Shown in pieces: positions 11,200-62,954 of a DNA stretch of 64,000 nt. The notes below the pieces were generated by a model, which did no database searches, was not told the DNA's origin, and saw only the letters and a program-made list of their open reading frames with translations. This DNA comes from Mobula hypostoma (Eukaryota). The stretch covers positions 1,488,001-1,552,000 of the forward strand of contig NW_026948219.1 of assembly GCF_963921235.1 (NCBI RefSeq), given 5' to 3'. How positions within the stretch are numbered: position 1 is the first letter of the stretch; each line of letters begins with the position of its first letter. Made by a program: the position numbers and the translations under genes.

Positions 11200-11770
11200 T
11201 CTGACCACCTGCCAGACATCTGACAGGATCCAGACACGCAAGGCCGGGTGAAGGCCCAGGTCTCCGAGTTGACGCCTCCGTATGTCTCCTCCTACCTCTC
11301 GGCGATACATCAGACTCCGGCCGCAGGAGACGCTTCACAAACGCCGCCGGCTTCCCTCGGATGGAAATGGAAATAAATCAGAAAACGGGACATTTACTCT
11401 GAGAATTGTTCCGCTTTGACGGAGAGATCGGCGCCGGCGCGGAAGACGGAACCAACGGGGGTACCGCCCTCTCCGCTGGTCCGCTTCTGCTATTGGGTGT
11501 AACCAGTGATTGGCATTATATCCCACCAATGGCAATAGCGCAGCTGAGCGTTGGATTTCAGTGACGGGGAGGGATGATCACGTGATTAGTAGCCCAGCTG
11601 TTAAACCGACAAAGCTCGAGCACAGCAGCTTGTGGGTGACGTAGACACCGTGCACGTGAGGGAAGATCCCAGTCAGGGTAACCCGTGTGTGACGTCAGGC
11701 GCGTGGGGGGGGGGGTGCACCTGTGTGACGTCACCTGTGGGGAAGCGCTCGTATTTAAAAACACCTGAAT
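11200..11770. promoter_or_regulatory. CpG-island promoter, probably bidirectional
   Basis: High CpG; ETS-type GCGGAAG ~11439; CCAAT/ATTGG at ~11492, ~11509, ~11526; E-boxes CACGTG ~11579 and ~11653; perfect CREs TGACGTCA at 11690-11697 and 11726-11733; TATA-like TATTTAAA ~11752. Confidence 0.7.
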
Positions 11771-12039
11771 GGACGTTTCTGATGATTTCAGTGGGACAAC
11801 AACATTAATCCCGGGTTTCATCACTGAATCCAGTGTTGTGAGATGTAAAGTCCCCTGTTATGTGTCCGGCTGTGCCGTGTTGTTGGTGGAGTGGGCAGCG
11901 TGGTGTTTGTCTCGATTCGGGTCACAACACCAGAATTGCCAGTGGGGTCCACACACAGTGTATTAGTCAACAGAAAACCTCTCGTCCCTGCAGTCTCTGT
12001 CTCCTGGTAAACTCAACACCCTGTCCATGTGGACCATAG

Positions 12040-12565
12040 ACACCCCTTCCTCACCCGCTCCGTTTTTATTCAAATATTTCCCCCATTCCATCTCAGTTCT
12101 GAAGGAAGGTTCAAGGGGAAACGTCGACTGTTGACTCTTTTCATAGTCATAGTCATACTTTTTTGATCTCGAGGGAAATTGGTTTTCGTTACAGTTGCAC
12201 CAACCAATAATAGAGTATAAATATAGCAATATAAAACCATAAATAGTTAAATAATAATATGTAAATTATGCTAGGAAATAAGTCCAGGACTAGCCTATTG
12301 ACTCAGGGCGTCTGACTCTCCAAGGGAAGAGTTGTAAGGTTTGATCGCCACAGGCAGGAATGACTTCCTATGAGGCTCAGTTTTGCATCTCGGTGGAATG
12401 AGTCCCTGGCTGAATATACTCCTGTGCCCAACCAGTACTTTATGTAGTGGATGGGAGACATTGTCCAAGACGGCATTGTCGATAGATGCTGCCCGGCCTG
12501 CTGAGTTCCGCCAGCATTTTTTTTGTGTGGCTCTGGATTTCCGGCATCTGTAGACTTTCTCGTGG
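12040..12565 (+). mobile_element. Penelope-like short repeat with degenerate hammerhead core, split by a minus-strand Rex1-type 3' fragment (~12140-12480)
   Basis: 'cagttCTGAAGGAaggttcaagggGAAACGTCgactg' followed after the insert by 'tagatgctgcccggcctgctgagttc...cagcattt'. The insert reads 'IPPRCKTEPHRKSFLPVAIKPYN' with a catagt-repeat tail. Confidence 0.6.
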
Positions 12566-12589
12566 TTGTAATTAACCTCTCCATTGTCC

Positions 12590-12742
12590 CACGGGCCTCC
12601 GGCCACTGGAGGCGCTGTTTCGTCCTCCGGCCGCTGGCAGCGCTGTGTGGCCCTCCGGCCACTGGTGGAGCTGTGTGGACCTCCGGCTACCGGCGGTGAT
12701 TTGTAGCGCTCTGGGTGCCGACCGCAGCTGTCGCCGGCAGCG
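12590..12742 (+). promoter_or_regulatory. GC-rich putative TSS/exon 1 of ZNF gene 1, with four ~28-bp repeats (cctccggccactgg...gctgt)
   Basis: CpG-rich; ends at a strong donor GCG|GTGAGT (12742/12743). Confidence 0.55.
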
Positions 12743-14830: not shown

Positions 14831-15003
14831 ACTGAATGATGACTCCTTCCTATCCCTTATCAGGTTTTGTGACGTGTCAGGGATAATTACAGATTTGTTC
14901 ACTGAGATCATTATATTTGTCTTCAATGTTTAGATTTCAGTGAGCAGAAATATTTTGTTCTCCTTTGTATTGTTAACATGTTTCATTATCTTTCATTTTG
15001 AAG

Positions 15004-15172
15004 TTAGACCTGTGGTGAGAGATTTATTGGAACAAAAGCCCACAACTGGAAGCAAACCACGACTGAAGATGAGGGAACAGCAGCAAATGAACCAGCCCGA
15101 GGACTGAGAGCATCAACTGGAGAGAACCCTTCTGACTCAGGGTTTCCATTGATTCAGTCCGGAGCAAGTTCG
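15004..15172 (+). other. Putative exon 2 (5' leader) of ZNF gene 1
   Basis: Polypyrimidine tract, ttttgaag| acceptor and |gtgagt donor; conserved with the inverted paralog at 5656-5823. Confidence 0.6.
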
Positions 15173-22520: not shown

Positions 22521-22904
22521 ACAAGAACATGAAATAATATTAATATTCATTTAATTCCTTTTAACAGCTGTGCAGACCAACCATTCATCTGGGCAGAAGA
22601 TGTTTTCATGGCTTTAAAACTGTGGCACTTTATATTGACAGTAGATCAAAGAAAATCCCAGCTGTACATCAACAAAGGGGGGAACCCATTCACCTGCTGA
22701 GACAATGGGAATGGATTCAGTCGGTCATCTCAGCTGAAGGTGCATCAGCAAGTTCACACTGGGACAAGGCCATTCACCTTTTCTGTGTGTGAGAAGGGAT
22801 TCAGTCGGTCTTCCCACCTGTGGACACACCAGTCTGTTCACACTGAGCAGAGGCTGGTCATCTGCTGAATTTGTGGGGAATGTTTCACTCGGTTATCTGA
22901 CCTA

Positions 22905-23945
22905 ATGGCTCACCAGCGAGTTCACACCGGGGAGCGGCCGTTCACCTGCTCAGACTGTGGGAAGGGATTCACTAAATCATGTAAACTGAAGGTACATCAG
23001 CGAGTTCACACTGGAGAGAGGCCGTTCACCTGCTCAGACTGTGGGAAGGGATTTACTGTATCATCTCAGTTACTGAGACACCAGTCAGTTCACACTGGGG
23101 AGAGGCCATTCACCTGCTCAGACTGCGGGAAGGGATTCATTCAGTCATCTCATCTGAAGGCACACCAGCGAGTTCACACCAGGGAGAGACCATTCACCTG
23201 CTCAGTCTGTGGGAAGGGATTCACTTGCTCATTTAATCTGAAGGTACATCAGCGAGTTCACACTGGGGATAGGCCGTTCACCTGCTCAGACTGTGGGAAG
23301 GGATTCAAACTGTTCACTCACCTACTGACACATCAGCGAGTTCACACTGGGGAGAGACCATTCACCTGCTCAGACTGTGGGAAGGGATTCATTCAGTCAT
23401 CTCAACTGAAGGTACATCAGAGAGTTCACACCAGGGAGAGACCATTCACCTGCTCAGTCTGTGGGAAGGGATTCACTTGCTCATTTAATCTGAAGGTACA
23501 TCAGCGAGTTCACACTGGGGATAGGCCGTTCACCTGCTCAGACTGTGGGAAGGGATTCAAACTGTTCGCTCACCTACTGACACATCAGCGAGTTCACACT
23601 GGGGAGAGGCCGTTCACCTGCTCAGACTGTGGGAAGGGATTCACTCAGTCATATCAACTGAGGGTACATCAGCGAATTCACACTGGGGTGAGGCCGTTCA
23701 CCTGCTCAGTGTGTGGGAAGGGATTCACAAAGTCATCTGCTGTACTGAGACACCAGTCAGTTCACACTGGGGAGAGGCCATTCATCTGCTCAGTGTGTGG
23801 GAAGGGATTCGTAGATTCATCTCAACTGAAGGTACATCAGCGAGTTCACACCGGGGAGAGGCCATTCACCTGCTCAGACTGTGGGAAGGGATTCACTTGC
23901 TCATCTCATCTACTGAGACACCAGTCAGTTCACACCAGGGAGTGA
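22905..23945 (+). CDS. C2H2 Kruppel-type zinc-finger protein, 12 fingers, no KRAB (ZNF gene 1); last exon starts at acceptor 22567/22568
   Basis: 346-aa ORF of CxxC-x12-HxxxH repeats with TGERPF linkers; degenerate fingers on both sides. Confidence 0.9.
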
Positions 23946-24279
23946 CCATTCACTTGTTCAGTCTGTGGGAAGGGTTTCAATTGGTCATTTCACCTGCTGA
24001 CACACAGGGAAATGGCCGTTCACCTGCTCTGTCTGTGGGAAGGGATTCATTCAGTCATCTCAACTGAAGGAACATCAGCAAGTCCACACTGGGAAGGGGC
24101 CGATCAGCTGCTCAGACTGTGGGAAGAAATTCTCTCAGCCAAATCAACCAATTGTGCATCACTGAGTTCACACTGGGGAGAGGCCGTTCACCTGCTGTGA
24201 ACGTGGTGAAGTATTTACGGTGGACATGGACTGTGCCTTTAAATGAGAGAGAAAAACTGTCTGCAGTACTGCTGCCTGC

Positions 24280-25532
24280 TTCTTGGTTGCCATGGTGAGA
24301 GAGAGGCGGAGTTATGTGATGGACGGTTCGATGTTCACAGTTGCTTCTTGGTTGCCATGGTGAGAGAGAGGCGGAGTTATGTGATGGACAGTTCAATGTT
24401 CACAGTTGCTTCTTGGTTGCCATGGTGAGAGAGAGGCGGAGTTATAGAAACATAGAAACATAGAAAATAGGTGCAGGAGTAGGCCATTCGGCCCTTCGAG
24501 CCTGCACCGCCATTTATTATGATCATGGCTGATCATCCAACTCAGAACCCAGCCTTCCCTCCATACCCCCTGACCCCTGTAGCCACAAGGGCCATATCTA
24601 ACTTCCTTTTAAACATAGCTAATGAACTGGCCTCAACAGTTTGCTGTGGCAGAGAATTCCACAGATTCACCACTCTCTGTGTGAAGAAGTTTTTCCTAAC
24701 CTCGGTCCTAAAAGGCTTCCCCTCTATCCTCAAACTGTGACCCCTCGTTCTAGACCTCCCCAACATCGGGAACAATCTTCCTGCATCTAGCCTGTCCAAT
24801 CCCTTTAGGATCTTATACGTTTCAATCAGATCCCCCCTCAATCTTCTAAATTCCAACAATCTCTTTTAGCCATGTCTCTGTGATCCCAACTATATCATAA
24901 TCATTAATAACAATCTGCACTTTCAATTCATCCACCTTATTACGAATGCTCCTTGCATTGACACATAAAGCCTTCAGGCACTCTTTTACAACTCTCTTAG
25001 CCCTTTTTAATGCTTGCCCTGGATTTGTCGGCCTGCCACTTTTACTTTTCCCCTTTGTACTTTTTGCTTCTACGCTCACTTTACACCCCTCTGTCTCTCT
25101 GCACTGGTTCCCATCCCTCTGTTGTGAACTAACCTCCTCACACCTAGCCGCTTTAATTTGATTCCCACCCCCCAACCATTCTAGTTTAAAGTCACCTCAG
25201 TAGCCCCCGCTAATCTCCCTGCCAGGATATTGGTCCCCCGAGGTTATGTGATGGACAGTTCAATGTTCACAGTTGCTTCTTGGTTGCCATGGTGAGAGAG
25301 AGGCGGAGTTATGTGATGGACAGTTCGATGTTCACAGTTGCTTGGTTGCCATGGTGAGAGAGAGGCGGAGTTATGTGATGGACAGTTCGATGTTCACAGT
25401 TGCTTCTCGGTTCCCATGGTGAGAGAGAGGCGGAGTTATGTGATGGACAGTTCGATGTTCACAGTTGCTTGGTTGCCATGGTGAGAGAGAGGCGGAGTTA
25501 TGTGATGGACAGTTCGATGTTCACAGTTGCTT
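24280..25532. repeat. 65-bp tandem repeat (~7 copies) TTCTTGGTTGCCATGGTGAGAGAGAGGCGGAGTTATGTGATGGACAGTTCGATGTTCACAGTTGC
   Basis: Directly visible; split by the CR1 at 24446-25242. Confidence 0.95.
24446..25242 (-). mobile_element. Internally deleted CR1 (ORF2 start joined to the 3' end)
   Basis: 3' tail (ctatgttt)n and 'LRGDLIETYKIL' up to ~24857, directly joined to 'CVNARSIRNKVDEL...IVGITETWL'; GTTAT flanks both ends. Confidence 0.85.
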
Positions 25533-26288
25533 CGTAGCGTGTTTATTTAAACAAGGTCAGATGACTCTCCCAGAGACACACAGTGGGACACCGGTTAAGG
25601 CGACCAGTCAGTGAAAGGAGGCCAGTGACAGAGGAGTCACTGGGTGGAACTTTCGAGTGCCCACAAGCGAGGGTTGAGGATCGATCAGGGGAATTGATCA
25701 GTGGCTGTCATGGTGTGTGGAAGGGCTGACCCTGTGGAGGCTACCGGTGTGTCTACCCTTGCCTGGGTGGTAGTTTACCCTCGAAGATGGTCCCCTTAGT
25801 GATAACCTGCGTTTGGCTAACTCGAGAGTGGATTCGGAGCCTGAGGATGGAAGATCAACGGGACCTGTTTACTCGTTCTTCTCCCAGTGTGGTTTTCACC
25901 TTGGATTACAAATACCTTCCTCACACACACCAATTCCGTGGATTGAACTGAACTTCCTTACATCACTATCGTGAGACTTTAACTCTTGCCACTCGAGCTT
26001 GAGTGTGTTTGGGAATTATATTTACATACATATATATGCATAACACTACTAACTTTTGATTTACCTGGATTAAGTTACTATATTAACTAGATACTAATAT
26101 ATAGTGTTTTTTAATATCAAAACCAGACTCCAGGTGTGCTCTATTGCTGCTGGTTCATTTAGACCGTTACGTGTACGTAAACAGATTCATTCAGTGTGTC
26201 CTTATGACACACCACCAGGTTCACACCGGGGAGGGGGTGTTCACCTGCTGTGAATGTGGGAAGCGATTCACTCAATAATCTAACCTTA

Positions 26289-26736
26289 TGTAACTCTCCC
26301 TCGGCTAGCAGCTTAATATAGGGGGTGATAGCTCCCCAGCTCGGCCAGACTTAAGAAATCTCGTTTGGGTGGATGCTGCGCAATGTGTCCCCTGTTACAA
26401 AATCAGTACCCCGAAATAACAAACAGTACACAATATGTGATTAAACAATTGAGCTTCATAATTCTTACTTTGACTATTGGGTTAGTGAAGAAAACAAGAA
26501 AAAGGGTCCACTCTCTCCATCCGCGTCTTCTCATCTCTCCCCAGCAAAAGACCACGAAAATCTCTCTTCCAGACTCACAAGGAAGAACATTTCTGTCATT
26601 GGATACCCCGCACTCCAAAACCCTGTTATCTCTATTCGTAACCTAAACATTGCTGCTACAGAGAAACCATTACCTCAGCAGTGATACATTGCAGAGAGGC
26701 CATTACATGAACAGTGAAACCTTACAGCATGTTACA
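26289..26736 (-). mobile_element. Solo LTR (~450 bp) in a degenerate finger of the ZNF1 3' region
   Basis: TGTAAC...GTTACA inverted termini; TSD ctta/cttg; finger sequence resumes afterwards. Strand inferred from similarity to the LTR at 41636-42247. Confidence 0.75.
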
Positions 26737-32192: not shown

Positions 32193-33050
32193 TGTCCAAT
32201 GTCATGTCCAACCAATCTAATAGAGTCTCTCGAGGAAGTTATTAGGAAAGTGGATGAAGGCAAGGCAGTGGATGTTGTCTACATGGACTTTAGCAAGGCA
32301 CTTGACAAAGTCTCATATGGGAGGTTGGTCAAGAAGGTTCAGTCACTCAGCATTCAAGATGAGATAGTAAATTGGATGAGACACTGTCTTTGGGAGAAGC
32401 TAGAGTGTGGTAGCAGATGGTTGCCTCTCTGACTGGAGGCCTGTGACTAGTGGTTTGCCGCGGGGATCGGTGCTGGATCTGTTGTTGTTTGTCATCTAGA
32501 TCAGTAATCTGGATGACAGTTAGACATTGGTGAGGCCTAATTTGGAGTATTGTGTGCAGTTTTATCACCTACCTACAGGAAAGATGTAAAAGAGATTGGA
32601 AGAGTTCAGAGAAATTTCACAAGGATGTTGCCAGGTCTGGAGGACTTGGGTTATAAGGAGAGATTGAACAGGTCAGGGCTATATTCCTTGGAAGATCGAG
32701 GCGAGATTTGATGGAGGTGTGCCAAAATTATGAGGGTTATAGATGGGGTAAATGCAAGCTGGCTTTTTCCACTGGGATGGGGTGGGACTACAACCAGAGG
32801 CCATGGATTAAGGGTGAACGGTGAAACATGAAGGGGAACATGAGGGGAAAATATTTCACACAGATGGTCATCCAGGTGTGGAATGAGCAGACAGCCGAAC
32901 TGGTGCATGCGAGCTCAATTTCAACATTGAAGAGGTTTGTATAGGTACCTGGATGGTAGGGGTACGGGGGTAGACAGTTAAAATAGTTCAACACAAACTA
33001 GATGGGCCAAAGGGCCTGTTTCTGTGTTGTACTTTTCTATGACTCTGTGA
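32193..33050 (+). mobile_element. Degraded CR1 fragments
   Basis: 'VDVVYMDFSKALDKV' and a CR1 3' end paralogous to 22031-22520. Confidence 0.82.
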
Positions 33051-33433
33051 CAAGAACATGAAATAATACTGATATTCATTTAATTCCTTTTAACAGCTGT
33101 GCAGACCAACCATTCATCTGGGCAGAAGATGTTTTCATGGCTTTAAAACTGTGGTACTTTAAATTGACAGTAGATAAAAGAAAATCCCAGCTATACGTCA
33201 ACAAAAGGGGGAACCCATTCATCTGCCCAGACAGTGGGAATGGATTCAGTCGGTCATCTCAACTGAAGGTACATCAGCAAGTTCACACTGGGACGAGGCC
33301 ATTCCCCTGTTCTGTGTGTGAGAAGGGATTCAGTCGGTCTTCCCACCTGTGGACACACCAGTCAGTTCACATCGAGCAGAGACTGGTCATCTGCTGAATT
33401 TGTGGGGAAGGATTCACTCGGTTATCTGACCTA

Positions 33434-34222
33434 ATGGCTCACCAGCGAGTTCACATCGGGGAGCGGCCGTTCACTTGCTCAGACTGTGGGAAAGGATTCA
33501 CTGTGTCATCTCAGTTACTGAGACACCAGTCAGTTCACACTGGAGAGTGGCCATTCACTTGCTCAGTGTGTGGGAAGGGATTCACTCAGTCATGTAACCT
33601 GAAGATACACCAGCGAGTTCACACTGGAGAGAGGCCATTCACCTGCTCAGACTGTGGGAAGGAATTCACTTGCTCATTTAATCTGAAGGTACATCAGCGA
33701 GTTCACACTGGGGAGAGGCCATTCACCTGCTCAGACTGTGGGAAGGAATTCACTGAGTCATATCAACTGAAGGTACATCAGCGAGTTCACTCTGGGGAGA
33801 GGCCGTTCACCTGCTCAGACTGTGGGACGGGATTCACTCAGTCATATCAACTGAAGGTACATCAGCGAATTCACACTGGGATGAGGCTATTCACCTGCTC
33901 AGTCTGTGGGGAGGGTTTCACAAAGTCATCTGCTGTACTGAGACACCAGTCAGTTCACACTGGGGAGAGGCCATTCACCTGCTCCGTTTGTGGGAAGGGA
34001 TTCGTAGAGTCATTTGAACTGAAGGTACATCAGCGAGTTCACACTGGGGAGAGGCCGTTCACCTGCTCAGACTGTGGGAAGGGATTCATTCAGTCATCTC
34101 ATCTGAAGGCACATCAGCGAGTTCACACCGGGGCGAGACCGTTCACCTGCTCAGTCTGTGGGAAGGGCTTCACTTGCTCACCTCATCTACTGAGACACCA
34201 GTCAGTTCACATCAGGGAGTGA
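33434..34222 (+). CDS. C2H2 zinc-finger protein, 9 fingers, no KRAB (ZNF gene 2; tandem paralog of gene 1)
   Basis: 262-aa ORF; acceptor ttttaacag| at ~33096; upstream in-frame ORF 33137-33397. No own promoter or leader exons are seen in the duplicated unit. Confidence 0.85.
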
Positions 34223-34408: not shown

Positions 34409-35690
34409 TGTGGTGGACATGGACTGTGCCTTTAAATAAGAGAGAGAGAAAAACTGTCTGCAGTACTGCTGCCTGCTTCTTGGTTGCCATAGTGAGAGAG
34501 AGGCGGAGTTATGTGATGGACAGTTCATGTTCACAGTTGCTTCTTGGTTGCCATAGTGAGAGAGAGGCGGAGTTATGTGATGGACAGTTTGATGTTCACA
34601 GTTGCTTCTTGGTTGCCATGGTGAGAGAGAGGCGGAGTTATGTGATGGACAGTTCGATGTTCACAGTTGCTTCTTGGTTGCCATGGTGAGAGAGGCGGAG
34701 TTATGTGATGGACAGTTCAATGTTTACAGATGCTTCCTGGTTGCCATGGTGAGAGAGGGGCGGAGTTATGTGATTGACAGTTCGATGTTCACAGTTGCTT
34801 CTTGGTTGCCATGGTGAGGGAGAGGCGGAGTTATGTGATGGACAGTTCAATGTTTACAGATGCTTCCTGGTTGCCATGGTGAGAGAGGGGCGGAGTTATG
34901 TGATTGACAGTTCGATGTTCACAGTTGCTTCTTGGTTGCCATGGTGAGGGAGAGGCGGAGTTATGTGATGGACAGTTCGATGTTCACAGTTGCTTCTTGG
35001 TTGCCATGGTGAGAGAGAGGTGGAGTTATGTGATGGACAGTTCGATGTTCACAGTTGCTTCGCAGCGTGTTTATTTAAGCAAGGTCAGATGACTCTCCCA
35101 GAGACACACAGTGGGACACAGGTTACGACGACCAGTCAGTGAAAGGAGGCCAGTGACAGAGGAGTCACTGGGTGGAACTTTCGAGTGCCCACAAGCGAGG
35201 GTTGAGGATCGATCAGGGGAATCGATCAGTGGCTGTCATGGTGTGTAGAAGGGCTGACCCTGTGGAGGCTACCGGTGTGTCTACCCTTGCCTGGGTGGCA
35301 GCTTACCCTCGAAGATGGTCCCCTTAGTGATCAGCTGTGTTTGGCTAACTCGAGAGTGGATTTGGAGCCTGATGACCTGTTTACTCGTTCTTCTCCTGGT
35401 GTGGTTTTCACCGTGGATCACAAATACCCTCTCTCACACACCAATTCCGTGGATTGAACTGAACTTCCTTACATTACCATAGTAAGACTTTAACTCTTGC
35501 CACCCAAGCTTTAACAAGTTTGGGAAGTATATTTATACACATATATATGCGTAACACTGCTAACTTTTGATTTACCTGGTTTAAGTTACTATATTAAATA
35601 GTTACTAATAAATAGTGGTTTTTAACATCAAAAGCAGACTCCAGGTGTGCTCTATTGCTGCTGGTTCATTTAGACCATTGTGTGTACTTA
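34409..35690 (+). mobile_element. Solo LTR with 65-bp array (~9 copies, 34477-35060); paralog of 24216-26183
   Basis: gatt|TG start; AATAAA at 35607-35612; 3' end hit by a CR1; gatt resumes at 36039. Confidence 0.78.
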
Positions 35691-36146: not shown

Positions 36147-36598
36147 TGTAACTCTCCCTTCGGCTAGCAGCTTAATACAGGGGGTGACAGCGCCCCAGCC
36201 CGGTCAAACTTAAGAAATCTCGTTTGGGTGGATGCTGTGCAATGTGTCCCCTTTTACAAATCAGTACCCTGAAATAACAAACAGTACATAATGTGATAAA
36301 ACAATTGAGCTTCATAATTCTTACTTTGAGTATAGGGTTAGTGAAGTAAACAAATAAAAGAGAAAGGGCCCACTCTCTCCCTTCGCGTCTTCTCATCTCT
36401 CCCCAGCAAAAGACCACGAAAATCTCTCTTCCAGACTCACAAGAAAGAACATTTCTGTCATTGGATACCCTTCCCTCCAAAACATTGTTATCTCTAGTCA
36501 TAACCTAAACATTGCTGCTACAGAGAAACCATTACCTCAGCAGTGATACATTGCAGAGAGGCCATTCCATGAGCAGTGAAACCTGACATCATGTTACA
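36147..36598 (-). mobile_element. Solo LTR, same insertion site as 26289-26736
   Basis: TGTAAC...GTTACA; ctta/cttg TSD. Confidence 0.75.
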
Positions 36599-36839
36599 CT
36601 TGTGACACACTGCCGGGTTCACACTGGGGAGAAAGTTTCAATCAGCTGCATGCTGGATATTTGTCCATCACCGTTGCTGAATGTTATTTCGAGAGTGACT
36701 GTCTGTGCTGAACTCTGCAATTATTGCTGCTGCTCACCACACCCAGTTCTGCGCCCTGGTCACTGGGCATGGGAGGAGTTTCTTCTGCTGCACATTCACC
36801 TTTAATGGGACTGGAATTTAATAGTCTGTATCTGAGACA

Positions 36840-36845
36840 AATAAA
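36840..36845 (+). terminator. Putative polyadenylation signal of ZNF gene 2
   Basis: AATAAA conserved at the homologous position downstream of ZNF gene 3 (~61282). Confidence 0.55.
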
Positions 36846-39470
36846 TCCGTTTATTTTAAACTCTGTCTCCAGTACTTAGTGAATTTATAACACAACTAGT
36901 GTACAGTAGAGAGTCAACTCAGGCTGACTGGACACTGCCAGTGATTCAGTTCCATGACAGTCCTTTTAAATCCTCCCCTGTCGTTCACCTCTCACTCTCT
37001 CTGTGATGATGGGTTCCAAGCAGTTACCACTCTGTGGGTTTTTTTTATTAAATGCAATTGTGAACAATAGCCAGATCAGAAATGCTGATCAAGTCAACTA
37101 GTTCCCAAAGAGAACTCTGATAGGCCAATCAGAAGGTTCACTGCTGCTCAGCGATAGAATATATAAAAAAAAACATATGGACAGGTAAGAAACATTAAAA
37201 CATAGTAGAAATACTGGAGTTATGATCATCCTGATGAAATCTGCTGGAGAGAGACATTTATACACATGCTACCTTCTATAATTCAAAGAGATTGAAGGAT
37301 AAGGTTGCAGGGTGACAGAATGTAACACTTGGAACTGAAAACTAATCCCCACTGGGAGAAAACAGCACCTGTTCTTTCCGCACTGTTCCCCAGCAGTTTA
37401 AGGACTAAGTCCAGCCGGAAGATAACTCACAAGTGCTCTTGAAAGTCAGGTATTAACCCTACTTGCCAACAACCAAGCATTGCCATCCTGGTCCCCTTCA
37501 TGATAGATTATGAAGAAGCATATGACTTCCCTCCCAGAGATGATAGGTGTTTGTGCACTCGACTCTTGAAGGCTTGCACCCCATCGTCGCAGATGTTTCC
37601 AACCACAGCATCTGGAAGGCTGTCCCAAATTCTGATAGCACAGTGAAGGAAGCTTCTATCCAGTGTGTGGCTTCTCGCATCAGGCATAGAAACAGCCTGA
37701 GCAGGCATAGACAAACTTGATCGTCTGGTACGCCGTCTCTCATAAGATGAAGGCAGCATGGCGTGAGGGTCTGCAGGGCTGTGGCTGGCGGGCATTTTGT
37801 ATATTCTGCATTGTGCATTTTCATCTACACCTATAATCCTGGGAGCCTTTCTCTGAATGGAATCAAGCTGGCTGAGGGAACTCTGTGAGGCATTCATCCA
37901 TGATACTTTGTACCTGGGCTTTGTAAACCATGGCTGTGCCCTCTTTGTCTAATTTGGATGCTACTTTCCACAGAGCTCCAAGCCTTTGTCCAGCCATGTA
38001 TGAAATAGTGGAAAGGTGTTTATCCCATACCAACGTGCTGTCAATATTGACACCAAGGATTTTGCAGTTCCCAAAATACAGGTCGGGGTCAGATGGATTT
38101 CTCTTCCTAGACATCACCAACCCTTGCACTCAGTAGGCTCAAAGGTGATATTCCAGTCGTCTGCCCAGGCTTTCATCCTGTCAAGATCCCTATTCAGGCC
38201 TGCTGTCACTGTATTACTCTCTCCTGCTCTAATTGAAGAGGCTTCCCTTGAATTCTCTGCAGATGGAGCAGGGTCAGAAACCAGAGGCACGTCTGCAGAG
38301 GGCAGAGTTTGGGGCTCTGGACGATGGTTGGGGCAAGAACATATGATGAGGAGAAGGGAATCAGCAGCGGGGTGTGTCAACTGATGACAGAGTAGCAACA
38401 TTTGGAAGCTGACTGGCAGAGAAAGTCTTTCGGTTTTCTGACTGATGATACAAACAAGACCCATGGTGATGTGCTCCACTGATTGAGGAACATCTGTTGG
38501 TTGGGAATGATTTTATCTATTGAGGGAGTTGTTCCTTCTTGTATTGATTATCACATAATTGTTAATATTTTGACTGTAAAACTGGATCAGGCTTGAATTT
38601 ATGGTGCCTTTATGATGTGATAGAGGGCATTCATGGTTTGTATTTTAAAGCAAGATTTTGGTGAATGATATATGCCATTTGATTGTACCTTTGTAAGTAA
38701 TCAGTTTGAGTTAAACTGCTACAGGATTGTGTCTGGTTTCTCTTGGGATTTTCTGCACTTACTGCTTAATGAAATATAAGCATCTTAATGAAGAATTCCA
38801 CCATATTATGGTCACTCTTACCCAAGGGGCCTCTCACGACAAGATTAATAATTAACCCTTCCTCATTGCTCAAAACCCAGTCTAGAATAGCCTGCTCTCT
38901 AGTTGGTTCCTCGTCATGTTAGTTCAGAAAACCATCCCGCATACATTCCAAGAAATCCTCTTCCTCAGCACCTTTACCAATTTGGTTCCCCCAATCTACA
39001 TGTAGATTGAAGTCACCCATTATAACTGCTGTTCCTTTATTGCACACATTTCTAATTTCCTGTTTAATACCATCCCCGACCTCACTACTACTGTTAGGTG
39101 GCCTGTACACAACTCCCACCAGCGTTTTCTGCCCCTTAGTGTTATGCAGCTCTACCCATATCGATTCCACATCTTCCCGGCTTATGCACTTCCTTTCTAT
39201 TGCGTTATTCTCCTCTTTAACCAGCAACGCCACCCCACCTCCTTTTCTTTCATGTCTATCCCTCCTGAATATTGAATAACCCTGAATGTTGAGCTCCCAT
39301 CCCTGGTCACCCTGGAGCCATGTCTCTGTGATCCCAACTATATCATAATCATTAATAACAATCTGCACTTTCAATTCATCCACCTTGTTACGAATGCTCC
39401 TTGCATTGACACACAAAGCCTTCAGGCGCTCTTTTACAACTCACTTAGCCCTTATACAATTATGTTGAAA

Positions 39471-40800
39471 AGTGACAATCTCTTGAAATCAGTATTTATA
39501 ACTGCCACAAATTCCTAGAATCATTGACAGCGAAAATTACAGAACAATCAGTCTTATAAGTCACATAATAAAGATTTTGTTGAGAATTGTTCTGAGTTGA
39601 ATTAAAAACAAATTAAGACAGAAAATTCTAAACTGCAATATGGGTTTATTGAGGATAGAGGAAATAGGAACACAATTTTCATACTATGAATGCTTTCCGA
39701 AAGGGCAGTTGAATATGAAAATGATGTCTTTTTATGTTTTATCGATTTCACTAAAGCATTCGACAAAATGAAACATGATAAAATATTTCAAATTCTCGCT
39801 AAACTAAACACTGACTGAAGGGACCAACAACTGCTTCAAAATTTATATTGGAATCAAACAGCGGAGGTAAAAATTGATGATAATATAAGCAGTTGGACTA
39901 AAATTAAAGGAGCAGTTAGACAGGGATGCGTTGCCTCACCAGAAATATTTGATATCTATAATGAAGTGATTCTCAGAGAAATAGAAGACATAGATGGGAT
40001 AAAAATTGGTGGTGTTAACATCAGCAATATAAGATATGCAGACGATACTACCCTAACAGCAAGTGCTGCAGAAGACCTACAAATCCTCCTAGACAAATTA
40101 ATACAAACAAGTGCAGATCTTGGTCTAACCATCAACTGTAAAAAAACAAATGTATGGTAATATCAAAACAACAGGATACCCCCGACTGCCAATTATACAT
40201 CGGTAACCAAGAGATTGAACAAAAGACCGGCTTTAATTACCTTGGTAGCTTTATATCACAAGATGCTGGAACTAAAGTGGAAATAATAAAAAGAAGAATT
40301 GCCATTGCCAAAACCAGCTTCCAAAAAATGAAACCCATTTTTACTAACAGACACACTTCTCTGACAACAAGGCTGAGGCTACCAAAATGTTACATCTGGT
40401 CAATCTTGCTGCATGCTTCCAAAACACGGACTATAACACCGGAACTCTAAAGAAACTCAGAAGCAACAGAAATATGGTTTCTTAGAAGAATGCTGAAAAT
40501 ATCATGTAGGGATATGGTAACTAATGAGACAGTACTCCAACGTGACCATACAGAAAGATCTTTAATGAGAACATTAAATTAGAGAAAACTTAAATTCCTG
40601 GGCCATGTCTATAGAAAGGGAGAAATAGAATGTCTTACATTACAAGGCCGTATGCCTGGGAAAAGCGGAAGAGAAAGGCAAGGAAGAAGATATATGGACA
40701 CTGTGAAAGATCAGATTTAAATGTGCGAGATATCATTGACGCTGCGATGTGGAAAGCCACGATCGCCCAAGCGTGGAACACGCAAGGCACATGGAGAAGA
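39471..40800 (+). mobile_element. RTE-clade LINE fragment (RT to 3' end)
   Basis: 'NISNIRYADDTTL', 'FNYLGSFI', 'RRIAIAK', 'CYIWSILL', 'MWFLRRML'. Confidence 0.82.
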
Positions 40801-45758: not shown

Positions 45759-46788
45759 CCTTGGCGATGTAACCGAGAGGGGGCAGCACTGCTCCTGGTT
45801 AAGTTGCTGGTGACGTGCTCTCGATGTCACCTTGGCGATGTAACCGAGAGGGGGCAGCACTGCTCCTGGTTAAGTTGCTGGTGACGTGCTCTCGATGTCA
45901 CCTTGGCGATGTAACCGAGAGGGGGCAGCACTGCTCCTGGTTAAGTTGCTGGTGACGTGCTCTCGATGTCACCTTGGCGATGTAACCGAGAGGGGGCAGC
46001 ACTGCTCCTGGTTAAGTTGCTGGTGACGTGCTCTCGATGTCACCTTGGCGATGTAACCGAGAGGGGGCAGCACTGCTCCTGGTTAAGTTGCTGGTGACGT
46101 GCTCTCGATGTCACCTTGGCGATGTAACCGAGAGGGGGCAGCACTGCTCCTGGTTAAGTTGCTGGTGACGTGCTCTCGATGTCACCTTGGCGATGTAACC
46201 GAGAGGGGGCAGCACTGTTCCTGGTTAAGTTGCTGGTGACGTGCTCTCGATTTCACCTTGGTGAAGTAACCGAGAGGGGGCATTACTGCTCCTGGTTAAG
46301 TTGCTGGTGACGTGCTCTCCATTTCACCTTGGCGATGTAACCGAGAGGGGGCAGCACTGCTCCTGGTTAAGTTGCTGGTGACGTGCTCTCGATGTCACCT
46401 TGGCGATGTAACCGAGAGGGGGCAGCACTGCTCCTGGTTAAGTTGCTGGTGACGTGCTCTCGATGTCACCTTGGCGATGTAACCGAGAGGGGGCAGCACT
46501 GCTCCTGGTTAAGTTGCTGGTGACGTGCTCTCCATTTCACCTTGGCGATGTAACCGAGAGGGGGCAGCACTGCTCCTGGTTAAGTTGCTGGTGACGTGCT
46601 CTCGATGTCACCTTGGCGATGTAACCGAGAGGGGGCAGCACTGCTCCTGGTTAAGTTGCTGGTGACGTGCCCTCGATGTCACCTTGGCGATGTAACCGAG
46701 AGGGGGCAGCACTGCTCCTGGTTAAGTTGCTGGTGACGTGCTCTCCATTTCACCTTGGCGAAGTAACCGAGAGGGGGCAGCACTGCTG
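45759..46788. repeat. 71-bp intronic tandem repeat, ~14.5 copies
   Basis: Unit CCTTGGCGATGTAACCGAGAGGGGGCAGCACTGCTCCTGGTTAAGTTGCTGGTGACGTGCTCTCGATGTCA. Confidence 0.98.
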
Positions 46789-47448
46789 CTCATTCGCCAT
46801 CACAACCCAGAAAAATAGGGGAGATCACCATCTTCTCCCATACCTCCCTTGCGCCCTACATTCCCTACCCGTGGGATCGTCATTTCAATTGCTCTTACCC
46901 TCGAAGCCCCATTCAGACACCAGCCGTAGTGAATGAGAGCCGTGACACAGCCGAACACAGTGGCTGTAGGAGGATCGGCTGATGTGCATTCGACAGATTC
47001 CACTCAACGGAACTCTATTATTGAGCCGGTACTGACCCGGAGTAAGTGGGGCCGTACCCGCTGTCGGTCATCAGCCCCAGGGTGAAACCGATGCACTCAT
47101 TCCCTCCGTTTAGTCAATGAATGAGCGCAGGGCCTGGTGAACAGAATCGGACTTCACTGACTCGTCTAGGGTCGCTTGTACGCAATCTAGCTTAAACTCG
47201 AACAGTTTCAGAAACGTCCATCAATAAATAAGCTCTCACTTGGATATAACCGTCATTTTTGATCACATTCATTATCATCTTAAAGGTGCGACAGGGAGAA
47301 ATTAATTCAAATCCCTTGCTGGTCACCCCATTCTTGTGCTAGCTATGTTTACTATAATTCCCAACTGGTTCGGGTAAGACAGATAATGAAAGGTTTGATC
47401 GGAAATCCACAAAGGGGGAAGGGAAGGAGAGGGAGAGAGTGAGTGAGC

Positions 47449-47451
<3 letters not shown>

Positions 47452-47516
<65 letters not shown>

Positions 47517-56685: not shown

Positions 56686-57569
56686 CATTGCTAAATGACA
56701 ATAAAAGAGGACTGCGTGTCTTCATAATCTAAATCTAAGCCCTAGGAACAAGCCTGTGGCTATCCACACGACTAATGTCTCTCATCATCCTATACACCTG
56801 CATGAATTTCCTGCATGCTTCTCTCCAGGCTAAATAAGACGATGAGCTCACTGTGGTTTTGACGTCCTTTAGGGCTCTGGATGAAGTTGGTTAAACTCCT
56901 TCTTCCCCGCTCTTTTCAACGTTTTGTGTGATTTTCACTCATTTCAAAGGACTGTGTCTCAGACAGCTGGGTTGTTGCAATGCACCTCTAAAGTCTGACA
57001 GCAGACTAGTGAGTGAATCTTCGATGGGGCAGAGTCAGAAATCAAAGAGTAATCAGCCTGAATAAGGGCTTTGGGGCTCCTGAAAGAGATGGGACCTAGA
57101 GTTTACCAGGAGGAGCAGGAAAAGGAATCAGACCGGTAGGATGTGGTTGCAAATGAAAGATCACAAACATTTTGAAACAGTTTGAAAAAAAAGGTGGTTA
57201 ATTTCTGCAAAATACTGGAGGAAATCAACAGATCAGGCTGCAAATGTGGAGAGGAATAAATAGACGTTTATGCTGAGCCACTTCAGCATGTCTAGACTGT
57301 GTACTCCTCTGCTTAGTTGCTGCCTGAACTGCGGAGTTCCTCCAGCATTTTGTGCGTGTGCGTCTTTGTACTGTATTTCCAGCAACTGTAGAATCTCTGT
57401 GTTTTATATGTACATTTGTAAGAGGATTGTACTTTGGCATTAGATACACGTTGATATTGACTATATTCTTTACGGGAACCGCTTTCTGCGTTAAAACAGC
57501 TGCTGAATTTTCTATGCGCACCAAAAAAAGCTGAGCTACGGACATGGAACTGGTGCTTCCGGAAACTTT

Positions 57570-57717
57570 TAATGGCACCGTGATTGCCCATAAATCCTTG
57601 CGTTACAAATTTCGCCGTCGCCGAAGCACCGATCAAATGCGCAGGCGTCAGCGTTGTGACGTTCCCGAATATCACGCATGCGCGCAGTACACGAAGGCCT
57701 TAGAAGAGCGGCGGCAG
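57570..57717 (+). promoter_or_regulatory. CpG-island promoter/exon 1 of ZNF gene 3
   Basis: NRF1-like TGCGCAGGCG (~57638) and GCATGCGC (~57676); donor CAG|GTAGGA at 57717/57718; G-rich tract follows. Confidence 0.65.
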
Positions 57718-57948
57718 GTAGGAGCGAGTTTCCGGGGGTAGGGGAGGAGGGAGAGAGGGTGGGGGGGGGGCAGGGGGAAGGGAGAGAGGGTGGCGGGGGC
57801 GGGGAAAAAGGAGAGAGAGAGGGGGGGTGGCGGGGAGAAGAGGGGAAGGGGCGGTGGTGTTCAACACCAACTTTTAGACTATTGCTGTGACTCCAGACAC
57901 CGTGAGCCGCAATCCCGGGACAGTCCTGCTCTCTTCCCTCTCTCTCAG

Positions 57949-58096
57949 CCCCACCATCCGTACACGGGCCCCGGGGAGCTTCCGGCTGATGAGGGAATGG
58001 GAACCGATGGATCTCTCAGACAGAGCTGAGCTCCAGCTGTCTAAATGCAAGGATTGGGAACTCGGAGAAAAGGAACAAAATCTTTTACATCACCAG
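57949..58096 (+). other. Exon 2 of ZNF gene 3; carries a uORF from ATG 57989 (MREWEPMDLSDRAELQ...)
   Basis: Acceptor ctctctcag| and donor CAG|GTGAGA. Splicing to 59260 gives a 54-aa ORF ending at TAG 59314-59316. Confidence 0.65.
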
Positions 58097-58379
58097 GTGA
58101 GAAAATCACCTTTGTACTGCCTCCAATCACAAACAAGAGAAAATCTGCAGAGGGCACAGTCTTAAGGCGCTTGGAAGCGGGTATGAAGGAGATGTCAGGG
58201 GTGTTCTGTTCTTTATACATACCGTGGGTTACTAATAACAAACTATATTCTGGCAGAATTGAACTTTAATTTAACAGCAACAAAACCACGTTTTACACTG
58301 CCATGCTTCTCCATCATTCTTCATTTCTGCTCATGTCAGGAACTCTGTCCAGTCACGTCCTGACACGTGATATCACCAC

Positions 58380-58925
58380 AAGAGGTAAGTTTTTACACAG
58401 GGTGGTGAGCGTGCGGAATGGGCTGCCAGCGACTGTGATGAAGCCGGATACAATAGGGTCTTTTAAGAGGCTCCTGGATAGGTATATGACGCAGAGAAAA
58501 ATAGAGGGCTGTTGGGAATTCCTCAAGTAAGTAATGTTCGACATAGCGTTGTGGGCCGAAGGGCCTGTATTGTGTTGTATCAATGGGGAAGTCACTTACC
58601 CATGACCTCTGGTTGTCGTTCCACCCAACATCAGTGGAAAAAGCTGCTTGCATTCACTCTATCTATACCCTCATACTTCTGTATACTTGCAACAAATCCT
58701 CAAAGCAATGTATAATTTCCTTGTTTATGTTTAGAGCCTTTTTTTATCTGTATAAAATGATAAGAGACATTGATCGTGTGGATAGCCAGAAGCTTTCCCC
58801 AGGGCTGAAATGGCTAACATGAGGGACGTAGTTTTAAGGTGCTTTGAAATAGGTACCGAGGGGATGTCAGGGGTAAGTTTTTTTACACAGAGAGTGGTGG
58901 GTGTGTGGAATGCACTGCCGGCTAT
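58380..58925. mobile_element. Several small CR1 3' fragments in mixed orientation
   Basis: 'FLHRVVSVRNGLP', 'FFTQRVVGVWNALP'. Confidence 0.75.
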
Positions 58926-59665
58926 TTGTGTGAGAGTGTATCAGCTACTATGGGGCCAGGGACCCATGCAGCTCATTGGGAACAGGGAATAATAACAATG
59001 GAGAGAGTCAGACTGAGCCAGGTCACAGATTGGAGATGGCAGAAATGCCCCATTCTTATAGAGACAGGAAGAGCATCAGAGAGTTTAATGGTCATTCCAG
59101 ATACCAGCACTGTGCCTAGTTAGAAGATGATTTCTCTCTCCAACTTGGGTTGAACCTCACTGTAACAGTGTGATGCCAGATCACACCTTGACAACTCAAG
59201 TGACCTCATCTGAAATGTTGTCCAACACCCATTGATAGATTTTGTAAATCTTTTTACAGGTTAAAAATGACAAGGAATTTGTCTACGGGAATCTCAAACA
59301 CAACACGCCAGTTTAGCTGTCTCTGTCCAGATATTTAAGAAGTGGAGCAAGGGATTCACTCAATTATACTTCCTGCTCAGACTGTGGAGAGGAATTCACT
59401 CGGTCATCTGACCGACTGGCACACCTGTCATTTTACACGGGGGAGACCATTTGTCTGCTCAGACAGTGGGAATGGATTCACTCAGTCATTTCAACTGAAG
59501 GTACATCAGCAAGTTCGTACTGGGACAAGGCCATTCACCTCTTCTGTGTATGAGAAGGGATTCAGTCAGTCATCCCACCTGTGGACACACCAGTCAGTTC
59601 ACACTGAGCAGAGGCTAGTCATCTGCTGAATTTGAGGAGAAGGATTTACTCGGTCATTCGACCTA

Positions 59666-60535
59666 ATGGCTCACCAGCGAGTTCACACCAGGGAGCAGCT
59701 GTTCACCTGTTCAAAATGTGGGAAGGGATTCACTCAGTCATCCACCCTAATGGCACACCAGCGAGTTCACACTGGGGAGCGGCCGTTCACCTGCTCGGAC
59801 TGTGGGAAAGGATTCACTTGCTCATCCAAACTGAAGGTACATCAGCGAGTTCACACCGGGGAGAGGCCGTTCACCTGCTCGGACTGCGGGAAGGGATTCA
59901 CTCGGTCATCCGACCTGCTGGTACACATGTCAGTTCACACTGGGGAGTGGCCATTCACCTGCTCAGACTGCGGGAAGGGATTTGCTCGGTCATCTCAACT
60001 GAAGGTACATCAGCGAGTTCACAATGGGGAGATGCCATTCAGCTGTTCAGTCTGCGGGAAGAGATTCACTTGGTCATCCGACCTACTGGTACACAAGTCA
60101 GTTCACACTGGGGAGAGGCCATTCACCTGTTCAGTTTGCGGGAAGGGATTCACTTTGTCATCTCAACTAAAGGTACATGAGAGAGTTCACACTGGGGAGA
60201 GGCCGTTCACATGCTCAGAGTGTGGGAAAGGATTCACTCAGTCATCCAGCCTACAAGCACACTGGTCTGTTCACACTGGGGAGCGGCCATTCACCTGCTC
60301 ATACTGTGGGAAGCGATTCGCTCATTCATCTCAACTGAAGGTACATCAGCGAGTTCACACTGGAGAGAGGCCGTTCACATGCTCAGACTGCGGGATGGGA
60401 TTCACTCAGTCATCCACCCTAATGGCACACCAGCGAGTTCACACCGGGGAGAGGCCGTTCACCTGCTCAGTGTGTGGGAAGGGATTCACTTGGCCATCTC
60501 AACTGCAGAGACACCAGCAAGTTCACACTGGGTAG
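59666..60535 (+). CDS. C2H2 zinc-finger protein, 10 fingers, no KRAB (ZNF gene 3)
   Basis: 289-aa ORF with TGERPF linkers; last exon acceptor tttttacag| at 59259/59260. Confidence 0.9.
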
Positions 60536-60590
60536 AGGCTGATCACCTGCTGTGATTGTGGAAAGTGATTCACTCAGTCATCTAACGTTA

Positions 60591-61040
60591 TGTAACTCTT
60601 GCTTCAGCTAGCAGCTTAATATTGTGGGGTGACAGACACCAGCCTGACCAAACTTAAGAAATCTCGTTTGGGTGGATGCTGTGTGATGTGTCCCCTGTTA
60701 CAGATCAGTACCCGGAAATAACAAATAGTACACAAGATGCGAAAAAAAGTTTGAGCTTTATAATTCTCACTTTGACTATATGGTTAGTGAAGTAAACAAA
60801 AAGAAAAAGGGCCCACTCTCTCCATTCACATCTTCTCATCTCTCCTCAGCAAAAGACCATGAAAATCTCTCTTCCAGACTCACAAGGAAGAACATTTCTC
60901 TCATTGGATAGCCCCGCATTCAAAACCCTGTTATCTCCAGTCGTAACCTAAACATTACTGCTACAGAGAAACCACTACCTCAGCAGTGAAACATTACAGG
61001 GAGGCCATTACATTGGAAGTGAAACTTACAGCGTATTACA
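60591..61040 (-). mobile_element. Solo LTR at the same finger position as in ZNF1 and ZNF2
   Basis: TGTAAC...ATTACA; followed by cttg and the resumed finger 'tgacacactacggggttcacactgggga'. Confidence 0.75.
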
Positions 61041-62954
61041 CTTGTGACACACTACGGGGTTCACACTGGGGAGGAAGTTTCAATAAGCTGCATGCTGGAT
61101 ATTTGTCCATCACCGTTGCTGAATGCAATTTCGAGAGTGACTGTCGGTGCTGAACTCTGCAATTATTGCTGCTGCTCACCACACCCAGTTCTGCACCCTG
61201 GTCACTGGGCATGGGAGGAGTTTCTTCTGCTGCATATTCACCTTTAATGGGACTGGAGGTTAATATTCTGCATCTGTGACAAATAAATCAGTTCTATTTT
61301 AAACTCTGTCTTTGGTACTTTGTGAATTTATTACACAGCTAGTGTACAGTCGAGAGTCAACTCAGTCTGGCTGGACCCGGCCAGTGATTCTGTTCCACGA
61401 AATTCCTTTGAAATCCTCCCCTGTTGTTCATCTCTCGCTCTCCCTGTGGTGATGGCTTCCAGTCACCACTCTGTGGGTGAAGAAATTTCCCTTGAATTTT
61501 TGTGCAGACTGAAGAAGTCAAGTTGACTGCAGTTCTGTCTGAGCTGTTCTTCGCCCCTCTAATCTCTGGGCTGAGGAAGAATGACATTGGTAGTTAACCT
61601 CCTTATTCTGGGCTCATTTGCACATTATGGGTCATTTTCCCTGCTTCTAAATGGTTGTTAGAAAACACCACCGTCCTCTAAAGACTGAAAGCAGAATGGG
61701 AAACCATTAGTTGGATGTTCAACAGAGTAGGGTCAGAAACCAGAGGCGGGTCCGCACGGGGCAGAGTTTGGGGCTCTGGATGATGGTCGGGGTAAGAATA
61801 TGTGATGAGGAGAAGGGAATCAGCAGCGGGGTGTGGCAACGAATGACAGAGTAGCAACATTTGGAAGCTGATTGACAGAGAAAATAATTTGGTTGTCTGA
61901 CTGATGACACAAACAATATCTGGTGTGAGGTGCTCCACTGATCGAGGCACGTGTGTGGTGGGAATGGCTATATCTATTGAGGGAGTTGTTCCTGCTTGTT
62001 TATCCTGTTACGTTATACCCAGATGGTTATTATGGATTGTCCTATCTGAAATAATGTATTGGTTATCTATAGTTTGTGAGATTTTGACTCTAAAACTGGA
62101 ACAGGCTTGAATGTACGGTGCCATGATGAAATGGAGGTCAGTTTGTATTTTAAAGCAAGATTCTGGTCAATGATATTTGCCACTTGATTGTAATCAAATT
62201 GAGTTCAACTGCTGCAGGATCGTGGAATGTGTTGGAATGTGTCTGGTTTCTCTTGTTATTCCCTGCATTTATTCCCCTGTTTGTTTGTATTGTACAACGT
62301 TTGCATGTAGTTTTGATTTTTTTCTTATTTTTGTTAACCACCTTGTCCTGTATTTCTGCAAGGAACCCCTGTTTCTGGGAAGAGGTCTCCAACTCTCAGT
62401 CAGGTGCTCGATGCTTCCTTGTCAACATCTGGTCTGCTCAGATCGTTGGGATGTCTCCCATGGAGGGTCAAACTCATTCCACTGGTTAATGTTTTCTTCC
62501 ATAGTGATGATTCATTTTTCTGAGTGGGCCTCTCATTTAAGTTTTCTAGTCTGTATTTTATTGCATATGCTGAATCCTGTACATTTTTGATGAAAATATA
62601 TACTTAGAAGCTTTATCTGACTGTTGAGTGTTTTTTTTTTCATGTGTGTTATTTCTCTTCCTCCTTCTGTCCAAGGCAGTGTTAATCTAAGTGGGTCTGT
62701 GTGTAAATAGTCTTTTCTAAAGTTCTTACTTTTCTTTGTGTATTTTACTGATTGAAATGGGACCAAGATATTTCTATAAAAAAATTCAATGTCGGTATTG
62801 ATGAAAGAAGTACTTGCTTTTGTTGTGTTTGTTAACTACTGAGCTCTGTTTGACAGGTTTTTTTAAGCCTTGAACGAAATTTTCTCAAAGTTTTTTTCCC
62901 TATTTCGCAGTACTTTCTACTTTCTTTGCTTGTTGATATTCCAGATACGTGGGT

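What the first reader, a model, noticed from the sequence alone, without database searches (positions are those of the whole stretch)
11200..61300. Candidate system: KRAB-less zinc-finger cluster built from a repeating module physically wired to LTR elements
Seen: three effector-less C2H2 arrays share one architecture: leader exon(s), degenerate fingers, a conserved TGA, 'MAHQRVH' start, variable array, degenerate fingers hit by solo LTRs, then a shared 3' flank. They sit among ERV, Gypsy, CR1, Rex1 and RTE insertions. Established: tandem ZNF clusters in tetrapods (KRAB) and teleosts repress transposons and turn over quickly. Inference: this is the chondrichthyan-type equivalent, with a different co-repressor link (see PMDLS finding) and LTR-derived regulatory sequence in its own transcripts.
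Basis: partly seen in the sequence, partly recalled or inferred. Interest (0 to 1): 0.7.

Follow-up and report, generated by a model that had tools for sequence, protein, structure and literature searches.

The report
Fingers-only zinc-finger gene family, rays
These three genes belong to a young family of over a hundred copies, in what is likely a ray genome, whose reading frames hold only zinc fingers; they likely read fast-changing DNA such as transposons, but the retrotransposon ends in their tails are inherited passengers and the proposed co-repressor motif is not part of the finger reading frame.

Summary
The three arrays are real (12, 9 and 10 fingers). Each starts at MAHQRVH, 13 codons after an in-frame TGA, between decayed fingers. 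They belong to a family of at least 99–107 copies. In close paralog pairs, zinc ligands are under strong purifying selection (dN/dS 0.09). Contact residues are much freer (0.84–1.24) but not significantly above 1. Upstream pseudo-fingers, linker and one leader exon are neutral. So these are coding, effector-less genes.

The LTR 'wiring' is two single insertions inherited by duplication; 10 of 42 genes with the 3' flank lack LTR-B. PMDLS lies in a leader exon that a relative splices onto the finger exon (weak support), but no examined copy gives an open fusion. The shared leader is only partly true: unit 2 has no promoter and unit 1 has another leader exon. Transposon repression is plausible by analogy to KRAB and FiNZ zinc fingers but untested. 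The scan noted similar fingers-only clusters in other shark/ray genomes before. Verdict: a variant of a known kind, moderate interest.

The parts
11200..11760 (.). CpG-island promoter, likely bidirectional: serves unit 1 (+) and a head-to-head finger gene on the - strand
   Evidence: GC 0.57, CpG o/e 0.94 vs 0.51 for the window; homologous to upstream regions of 14 of 40 paralog loci; minus-strand 12-finger array in L141 and inverted leader exon near 5640-5805
15008..15172 (+). Unit 1 leader exon (E2), non-coding
   Evidence: AG|..|GT ends in all 32 copies examined; dN/dS 1.18 with stops and frameshifts; homologous to the segment joined to the family acceptor in annotated Hypanus protein P0121
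22568..22904 (+). Unit 1 inferred 5' part of last exon: decayed fingers with TGA at 22866-22868; acceptor inferred (the family acceptor is deleted in units 1 and 2)
22905..23945 (+). Unit 1 ORF, 346 aa, 12 C2H2 fingers, no effector domain
24216..26183 (+). Solo LTR-A with internal 65-bp repeats and a nested insertion; target duplication TATT/GATT
   Evidence: 75-77% like the LTR of a SCAN-gag (Gmr1-like) Gypsy element
26289..26736 (.). Solo LTR-B in unit 1, target duplication CTTA/CTTG
   Evidence: empty sites in L051, L056, L088
29150..32193 (+). Left copy of a 3-kb direct repeat of LINE pieces flanking unit 2
   Evidence: 96% to 37175-40200
32201..33433 (+). Unit 2 truncated intron and decayed fingers (TGA 33395-33397); no promoter
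   Evidence: close paralogs L030, L036, L076 have promoter and PMDLS exon 5.6-6 kb upstream; the window copy matches them only from 32201
33434..34222 (+). Unit 2 ORF, 262 aa, 9 fingers
34409..35690 (+). LTR-A, same insertion as in unit 1; sense-strand AATAAA/ATTAAA-type signals at 35593 and 35607
36147..36598 (.). LTR-B, same insertion as in units 1 and 3
36599..37040 (+). Unit 2 3' flank with poly(A)-type signal at 36840
37175..40200 (+). Right copy of the 3-kb direct repeat
57480..57717 (+). Unit 3 CpG-island promoter and inferred exon 1 (donor GT at 57718)
   Evidence: GC 0.59, CpG o/e 0.83 over 57480-58000; donor read from sequence
57949..58096 (+). PMDLS leader exon; its ATG (57989) opens a 54-codon upstream ORF that stops 18 codons into the finger exon
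   Evidence: joint 58096|59260 GT..AG in a relative's contigs
59260..59665 (+). Unit 3 last-exon 5' part: fossil linker and decayed fingers, TGA 59627-59629
59666..60535 (+). Unit 3 ORF, 289 aa, 10 fingers
60591..61040 (.). LTR-B in unit 3
   Evidence: joint 60586-61041 (LTR-less paralogs) in relatives' contigs
61041..61300 (+). Unit 3 3' flank with AATAAA at 61282

Best explanation
These are members of a young family of over a hundred genes, in a likely ray genome, whose open frames encode only strings of C2H2 fingers kept under purifying selection; they likely bind fast-changing DNA such as transposons by occupancy or through an unknown partner, while the LTRs in their tails are insertions inherited by duplication. 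Shown: one founder-type cassette (CpG promoter, leader exons without clear coding constraint, one large last exon with decayed fingers, TGA, ATG, array, decayed fingers) was multiplied by segmental duplication, with finger number varying from 0 to 34. Inferred: translation starts at the MAHQRVH ATG after upstream ATGs are passed; the founder once had an N-terminal extension that the TGA cut off; unit 2 is a promoter-less recombination product.
For: 99 exact matches to the TGA..ATG junction and 107 to the acceptor, controls 0. 79 of 92 examined genes have at least 5 fingers open from the ATG, median 12; 1146 of 1178 fingers keep CCHH. Collinear paralog pairs: zinc ligands dN/dS 0.09, hydrophobic core 0.03-0.04, non-contact 0.33-0.41, contact 0.84 and 1.24; upstream pseudo-fingers 1.14 with 17 stop changes. 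336 distinct contact fingerprints among 874 unique fingers. Stop at the same codon in 30 of 31 leader-anchored genes not selected for it. LTR-B at one site with empty-site paralogs and absent in 10 of 42 genes with the 3' flank. Unit 1 sits in blocks of 21 kb or more at 96.5-99.5% identity on two other contigs. Two Hemitrygon proteins also start MAHQR.
Against: No binding or repression data. Contact-site dN/dS is not significantly above 1 in collinear pairs (intervals 0.41-1.28 and 0.73-1.80), and the same positions in the non-coding pseudo-fingers also look raised (1.57, 1.14-2.13), so mutation context or gene conversion may explain part of it. The main ATG has a weak -3 base, and a median of 2 ATGs lie between acceptor and start. 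With no effector domain, how silencing would work is open. Splicing support is from relatives' contigs only guessed to be RNA. Some near-identical copies on unplaced contigs could be assembly duplicates.
Confidence: 0.6

Rival explanations
1. One reading: a transposon-silencing system that recruits the CtBP co-repressor through PMDLS and depends on LTR-derived regulatory sequence in its transcripts.
For: The PMDLS exon is spliced to the finger exon in a relative. PxDLS is present in 59 of 66 exon copies. From the acceptor the phase-0 frame reaches the finger frame with only the TGA between in 9 of 81 genes. In another clade a Gmr1-like LTR supplies the stop codon in 9 of 20 genes, and LTR-A carries sense poly(A)-type signals in unit 2.
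Against: 0 of 81 genes are open from acceptor to ATG. The PMDLS exon has dN/dS 0.73 (0.35-1.65), 4 frameshifts, 4 stops and 5 amino-acid changes in the motif, and only 9 of 66 copies keep GT. None of 8 GT-donor loci showed an open fusion; the finger exon was located in 4 of them. No PxDLS in any finger ORF. The exon peptide has no credible protein homologue. The TGA is followed by A, not a leaky-stop context (recalled). LTRs are missing from intact paralogs.
Confidence: 0.1
2. A selfishly expanding repeat family of mostly non-functional finger genes: arrays stay open through gene conversion and recent duplication, not because the proteins matter.
For: Many copies are 96-100% identical. Unit 2 lacks a promoter. 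13 of 92 ORFs have fewer than 5 fingers, 3 of them cut by the locus edge. The 5' parts evolve neutrally.
Against: Near-zero dN/dS at zinc ligands and core while synonymous changes accumulate at the same codons, and a change from neutral to constrained at about the ATG. Conversion would not spare synonymous sites.
Confidence: 0.12
3. Functional DNA- or RNA-binding proteins with targets other than transposons, such as satellites, subtelomeric repeats, host promoters or the cluster itself.
For: The same selection data fit. Clusters lie near contig ends of C5, C9 and C58 and on repeat-rich unplaced contigs. Contact-site positive selection is not significant.
Against: In zebrafish and mammals comparable young families are tied to transposons (PMC10547256, passages). 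The high fingerprint diversity suggests many targets.
Confidence: 0.2

Closest known systems
Cyprinid FiNZ-ZNF genes (Wells et al. 2023, PMC10547256; passages, section 4 and supplementary table rows read)
   Same: Large lineage-specific clustered family of tandem C2H2 genes, single array exon, variable contact residues, transposon-rich setting. The paper's table already counts 315-1851 ZNF ORFs in the seven chondrichthyan genomes I looked up.
   Different: FiNZ genes have a conserved 28-aa coding exon upstream. Here the upstream exons show no clear coding constraint and a TGA blocks any fusion. Knockdown evidence for transposon repression exists there, none here.
Tetrapod KRAB-ZFP clusters, especially young mouse clusters (Bruno et al. 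2025 [author name recalled], PMC12575710; passages and section 12 read; PMC4592553 passages)
   Same: Expansion by segmental duplication that copies earlier LTR insertions, giving LTR enrichment without new transposition; variable finger number.
   Different: No KRAB domain. The genome-wide KRAB search found nothing, but its control also rang nowhere, so that search is inconclusive.
Actinopterygian KRAB-like ZNFs with TRIM33 (PMC11603059, passages)
   Same: A proposed non-tetrapod transposon-control route through zinc-finger proteins.
   Different: Those carry a KRAB-like N-terminal domain; these proteins have only 12 residues before the first finger.
Gmr1-like Gypsy elements, source of the SCAN domain (as cited in PMC4592553 passages; the original paper was not held)
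   Same: A SCAN-bearing gag element is inserted at the array end in a paralog clade, and LTR-A is 75-77% like its LTR.
   Different: It lies 3' of the fingers and its gag frames are broken, so no SCAN-finger fusion was seen.

Membership tests
KRAB-ZFP | N-terminal KRAB domain in an upstream coding exon | tested here: not met
   ORFs start 12 residues before finger 1 behind an in-frame stop; no KRAB hit in window frames or leader exons
KRAB-ZFP | Tandem C2H2 array in one last exon with TGEKP-type linkers | tested here: met
KRAB-ZFP | Clustered birth-and-death evolution by segmental duplication | tested here: met
KRAB-ZFP | TRIM28 recruitment and transposon repression | not testable with these tools
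   needs biochemistry and binding maps
FiNZ-ZNF / KRAB-like ZNF | Conserved short coding N-terminal domain exon | tested here: not met
   E2 exon dN/dS 1.18, linker 1.23, PMDLS exon 0.73 (wide interval), all with stops or frameshifts; no open fusion in 81 genes. No FiNZ profile was run.
FiNZ-ZNF / KRAB-like ZNF | Positive selection at base-contacting residues | tested here: inconclusive
   finger-level 1.3-1.8 without intervals; collinear pairs 0.84 and 1.24, not significant; non-coding control also raised
CtBP-recruiting (PxDLS) zinc-finger repressor | PxDLS motif in the same polypeptide as the fingers | tested here: not met
Solo LTR of Gypsy type (LTR-A, LTR-B) | TG..CA ends, 4-bp target duplication, dispersed copies or empty sites | tested here: met
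   LTR-A: dispersed copies, target duplications in 3 of 5 inspected (one imperfect); LTR-B: three clean empty sites

The most novel reading that the evidence does not exclude
A single nonsense mutation stripped the N-terminal part, possibly a PxDLS co-repressor exon, from one ancestral ray zinc-finger gene. The resulting naked finger array then expanded over a hundredfold and now restrains young retroelements with no effector domain at all, while a Gmr1-like LTR was recruited as stop codon and 3' end in one clade. That would be a vertebrate transposon-defence family that works by DNA occupancy or finger-borne partner binding.
Probability: 0.25. Interest if true: 0.7.

Novelty: new variant of a known kind. 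Interest (0 to 1): 0.4.

Why it matters
Cartilaginous fishes have hundreds to nearly two thousand tandem zinc-finger ORFs, which the papers I found only count. No co-repressor route is known for them. This family shows such genes can be kept under selection as bare finger arrays, with UTRs built from their own dead fingers. If they bind young transposons, the vertebrate zinc-finger/transposon arms race does not need KRAB or FiNZ. The shared ATG context also makes a family-wide knockdown feasible, like the zebrafish FiNZ experiment. The LTR association itself is ordinary.

Tried and rejected
No RNA holder listed: none of 24 runs is on record as RNA and none holds half of the words, so expression of these exact loci is untested. 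Protein searches with the PMDLS peptide gave nothing or two unrelated repeat translations. The genome-wide KRAB search was blank with a silent control, so it is uninformative. Selection on the TGA itself: 37 of 38 unselected matches keep it, but neighbouring codons are about as invariant, so it is read as inheritance, not selection; readthrough or selenocysteine has no support. E2 exon as a hidden effector domain: rejected, neutral codons. A conserved signature lead finger, as in earlier shark notes: not seen; finger 1 is as variable as the rest. The regex LTR classification missed some LTR-B copies, so LTR-B counts come from BLAST. The first non-coding control kept only 10 of 92 sequences and was redone with 67. 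Five loci with an anchor but no located ATG and six without an anchor were left out of the 92. No binding-motif predictor was available, so transposon-target enrichment was not computed. Paper searches found no description of this family; subscription journals are not covered, and three supplementary files of PMC10547256 were not searched. P0122 could come from this genome's own species and is not counted as independent.
Full report
OBSERVATION. The window is G000:C148:1488001-1552000 of a 3.48-Gb genome. The closest named relatives by identity are ray proteins: Hemitrygon at 80-83% over the first 60 residues of unit 3, and Hypanus at 69-94% to the linker region. A ray genome is therefore inferred. 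Three + strand arrays are present, with ORFs of 346, 262 and 289 aa and 12, 9 and 10 fingers; each begins MAHQRVH, 13 codons after an in-frame TGA. Decayed fingers lie on both sides. Pfam finds only finger families in the arrays and no KRAB, SCAN or BTB domain in the window frames scanned.

FAMILY. An exact TGA..ATG junction pattern has 99 matches and an acceptor pattern 107, with 0 in the reversed controls. The unit 3 leader gives 352 first-look candidates, which are not copy numbers. Copies lie on small unplaced contigs and near the ends of C5, C9 and C58. Of 39 loci fetched by the leader, 33 showed a same-strand array within the 5-10 kb fetched. In 92 genes with a located ATG (89 fetched plus the three here), 79 have at least 5 fingers open, median 12, maximum 34. 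A stop stands at the same codon in 30 of 31 leader-anchored genes that were not selected for it.

SELECTION. I counted changes along minimum spanning trees (Nei-Gojobori type, bootstrap over edges); this is rougher than a codon model. In collinear paralog pairs (24 and 29 of 80 edges), zinc ligands have dN/dS 0.09, the hydrophobic core 0.03-0.04 and non-contact sites 0.33-0.41. Contact sites -1, 2, 3 and 6 have 0.84 (0.41-1.28) and 1.24 (0.73-1.80). The 44 codons upstream of the ATG are neutral, at 1.14 with 17 stop changes. At finger level the contact value is 1.3-1.8, with -1 and +3 near 2.5, and there are 336 fingerprints among 874 unique fingers. Against a firm positive-selection claim, the same positions in the non-coding pseudo-fingers are also raised, at 1.57 (1.14-2.13). 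So protein function is well supported, and an arms race is only suggested.

5' ANATOMY AND PMDLS. Contigs of a related organism (runs X1 and X3, one study, RNA only guessed, 27 letters on the short side) join 58096 to 59260 across GT..AG, and loose ends at 59259 show other exons joined to the same acceptor. In unit 3 that splice gives a 54-codon upstream ORF. Across paralogs the phase-0 frame from the acceptor reaches the finger frame with only the TGA in between in 9 of 81 genes, and it is fully open in none. This suggests the founder once had an N-terminal extension, but which exon supplied it is unknown. Annotated Hypanus proteins join other upstream segments to the same acceptor. One of these is the exon at 15008-15172 in unit 1, whose splice sites are kept in 32 of 32 copies while its codons are neutral at 1.18. 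The linker is neutral too, at 1.23. The PMDLS exon has dN/dS 0.73 (0.35-1.65), 4 frameshifts and 4 stops, and a GT donor in 9 of 66 copies. No GT-donor locus showed an open fusion, and no finger ORF contains PxDLS. That PxDLS binds CtBP is recalled, not tested.

LTRs. LTR-B has one insertion site, CTTA/CTTG, shared by all three units. Three paralogs show a clean empty site, and 10 of 42 genes that reach the 3' flank lack it, 8 of those with 10-17 open fingers. Relatives' contigs also skip it. LTR-A is one insertion shared by units 1 and 2 and their clade; the family is dispersed genome-wide at 80-84% with its own target duplications. A third element, a Gypsy with SCAN, zinc-knuckle and integrase hits, sits at one linker site in 20 of 92 genes and supplies the stop codon in 9. 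That is the best case for co-option, but it lies outside this window and its use is untested. Mouse KZFP clusters show the same enrichment by duplication of earlier insertions (PMC12575710, section 12).

LOCAL HISTORY. Unit 1 lies in a block repeated at 96.5-99.5% over 21 kb or more on C193 and C152, where it runs straight into the 37175 segment with no unit 2. On C140 a unit 2 copy with its promoter and PMDLS exon runs into the same segment. The window looks like a recombinant of the two, with a 3-kb direct repeat flanking a promoter-less unit 2; an assembly join cannot be excluded. The CpG island at 11.2-11.8 kb also faces a minus-strand finger gene left of the window.

MECHANISM. Shown: coding fingers-only ORFs, variable contact residues, growth by duplication, passenger LTRs. 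Inferred: translation from the downstream ATG, DNA binding, and transposons as targets; I put transposon targeting near 0.4, by analogy to FiNZ and KRAB families (PMC10547256 passages and section 4; PMC11603059 passages; PMC4592553 passages). With no effector domain, action by occupancy or through a partner is the most likely route.

NOVELTY. Chondrichthyan ZNF ORF numbers are in the Wells et al. supplement. My searches found no paper on this architecture. The scan's own notes report similar clusters in other shark/ray genomes; these are leads, not support. The family works like a young KRAB/FiNZ-type cluster but fails membership of either. Interest 0.4.

Noticed in passing
window:44667-45701 (-): Intact 345-aa single-ORF rhodopsin-family receptor (Pfam 7tm_1) inside the cluster, with a 71-bp tandem array at 45759-46790 just upstream.
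   Followed up: no
window:5466-5884 (-) and L141: Inverted copy of the E2 leader exon and a 12-finger minus-strand array left of the window: a head-to-head partner of unit 1 on one CpG island.
   Followed up: partly
L023 5340-8467 and 19 other loci: A Gmr1-like Gypsy element with SCAN-type gag inserted in a finger linker; its LTR gives the stop codon in 9 of 20 genes. Observed only.
   Followed up: partly
window:2052-3095: Broken retroviral pol fragment (MLV-type integrase C-terminus) and an env-like frame without a Pfam hit, probably in the intron of the minus-strand finger gene.
   Followed up: no
window:7350-11160: GT-rich satellite with a period of about 50 bp directly left of the bidirectional promoter.
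   Followed up: no
window:24277-25533 and 34474-35061: 65-bp tandem repeat expanding inside LTR-A, with copy number varying among paralogs.
   Followed up: no
window:27004-29169 (-): 722-aa open CR1-type reverse-transcriptase frame, 96.5% to a copy on C2: a young LINE that cuts unit 1's 3' flank.
   Followed up: no
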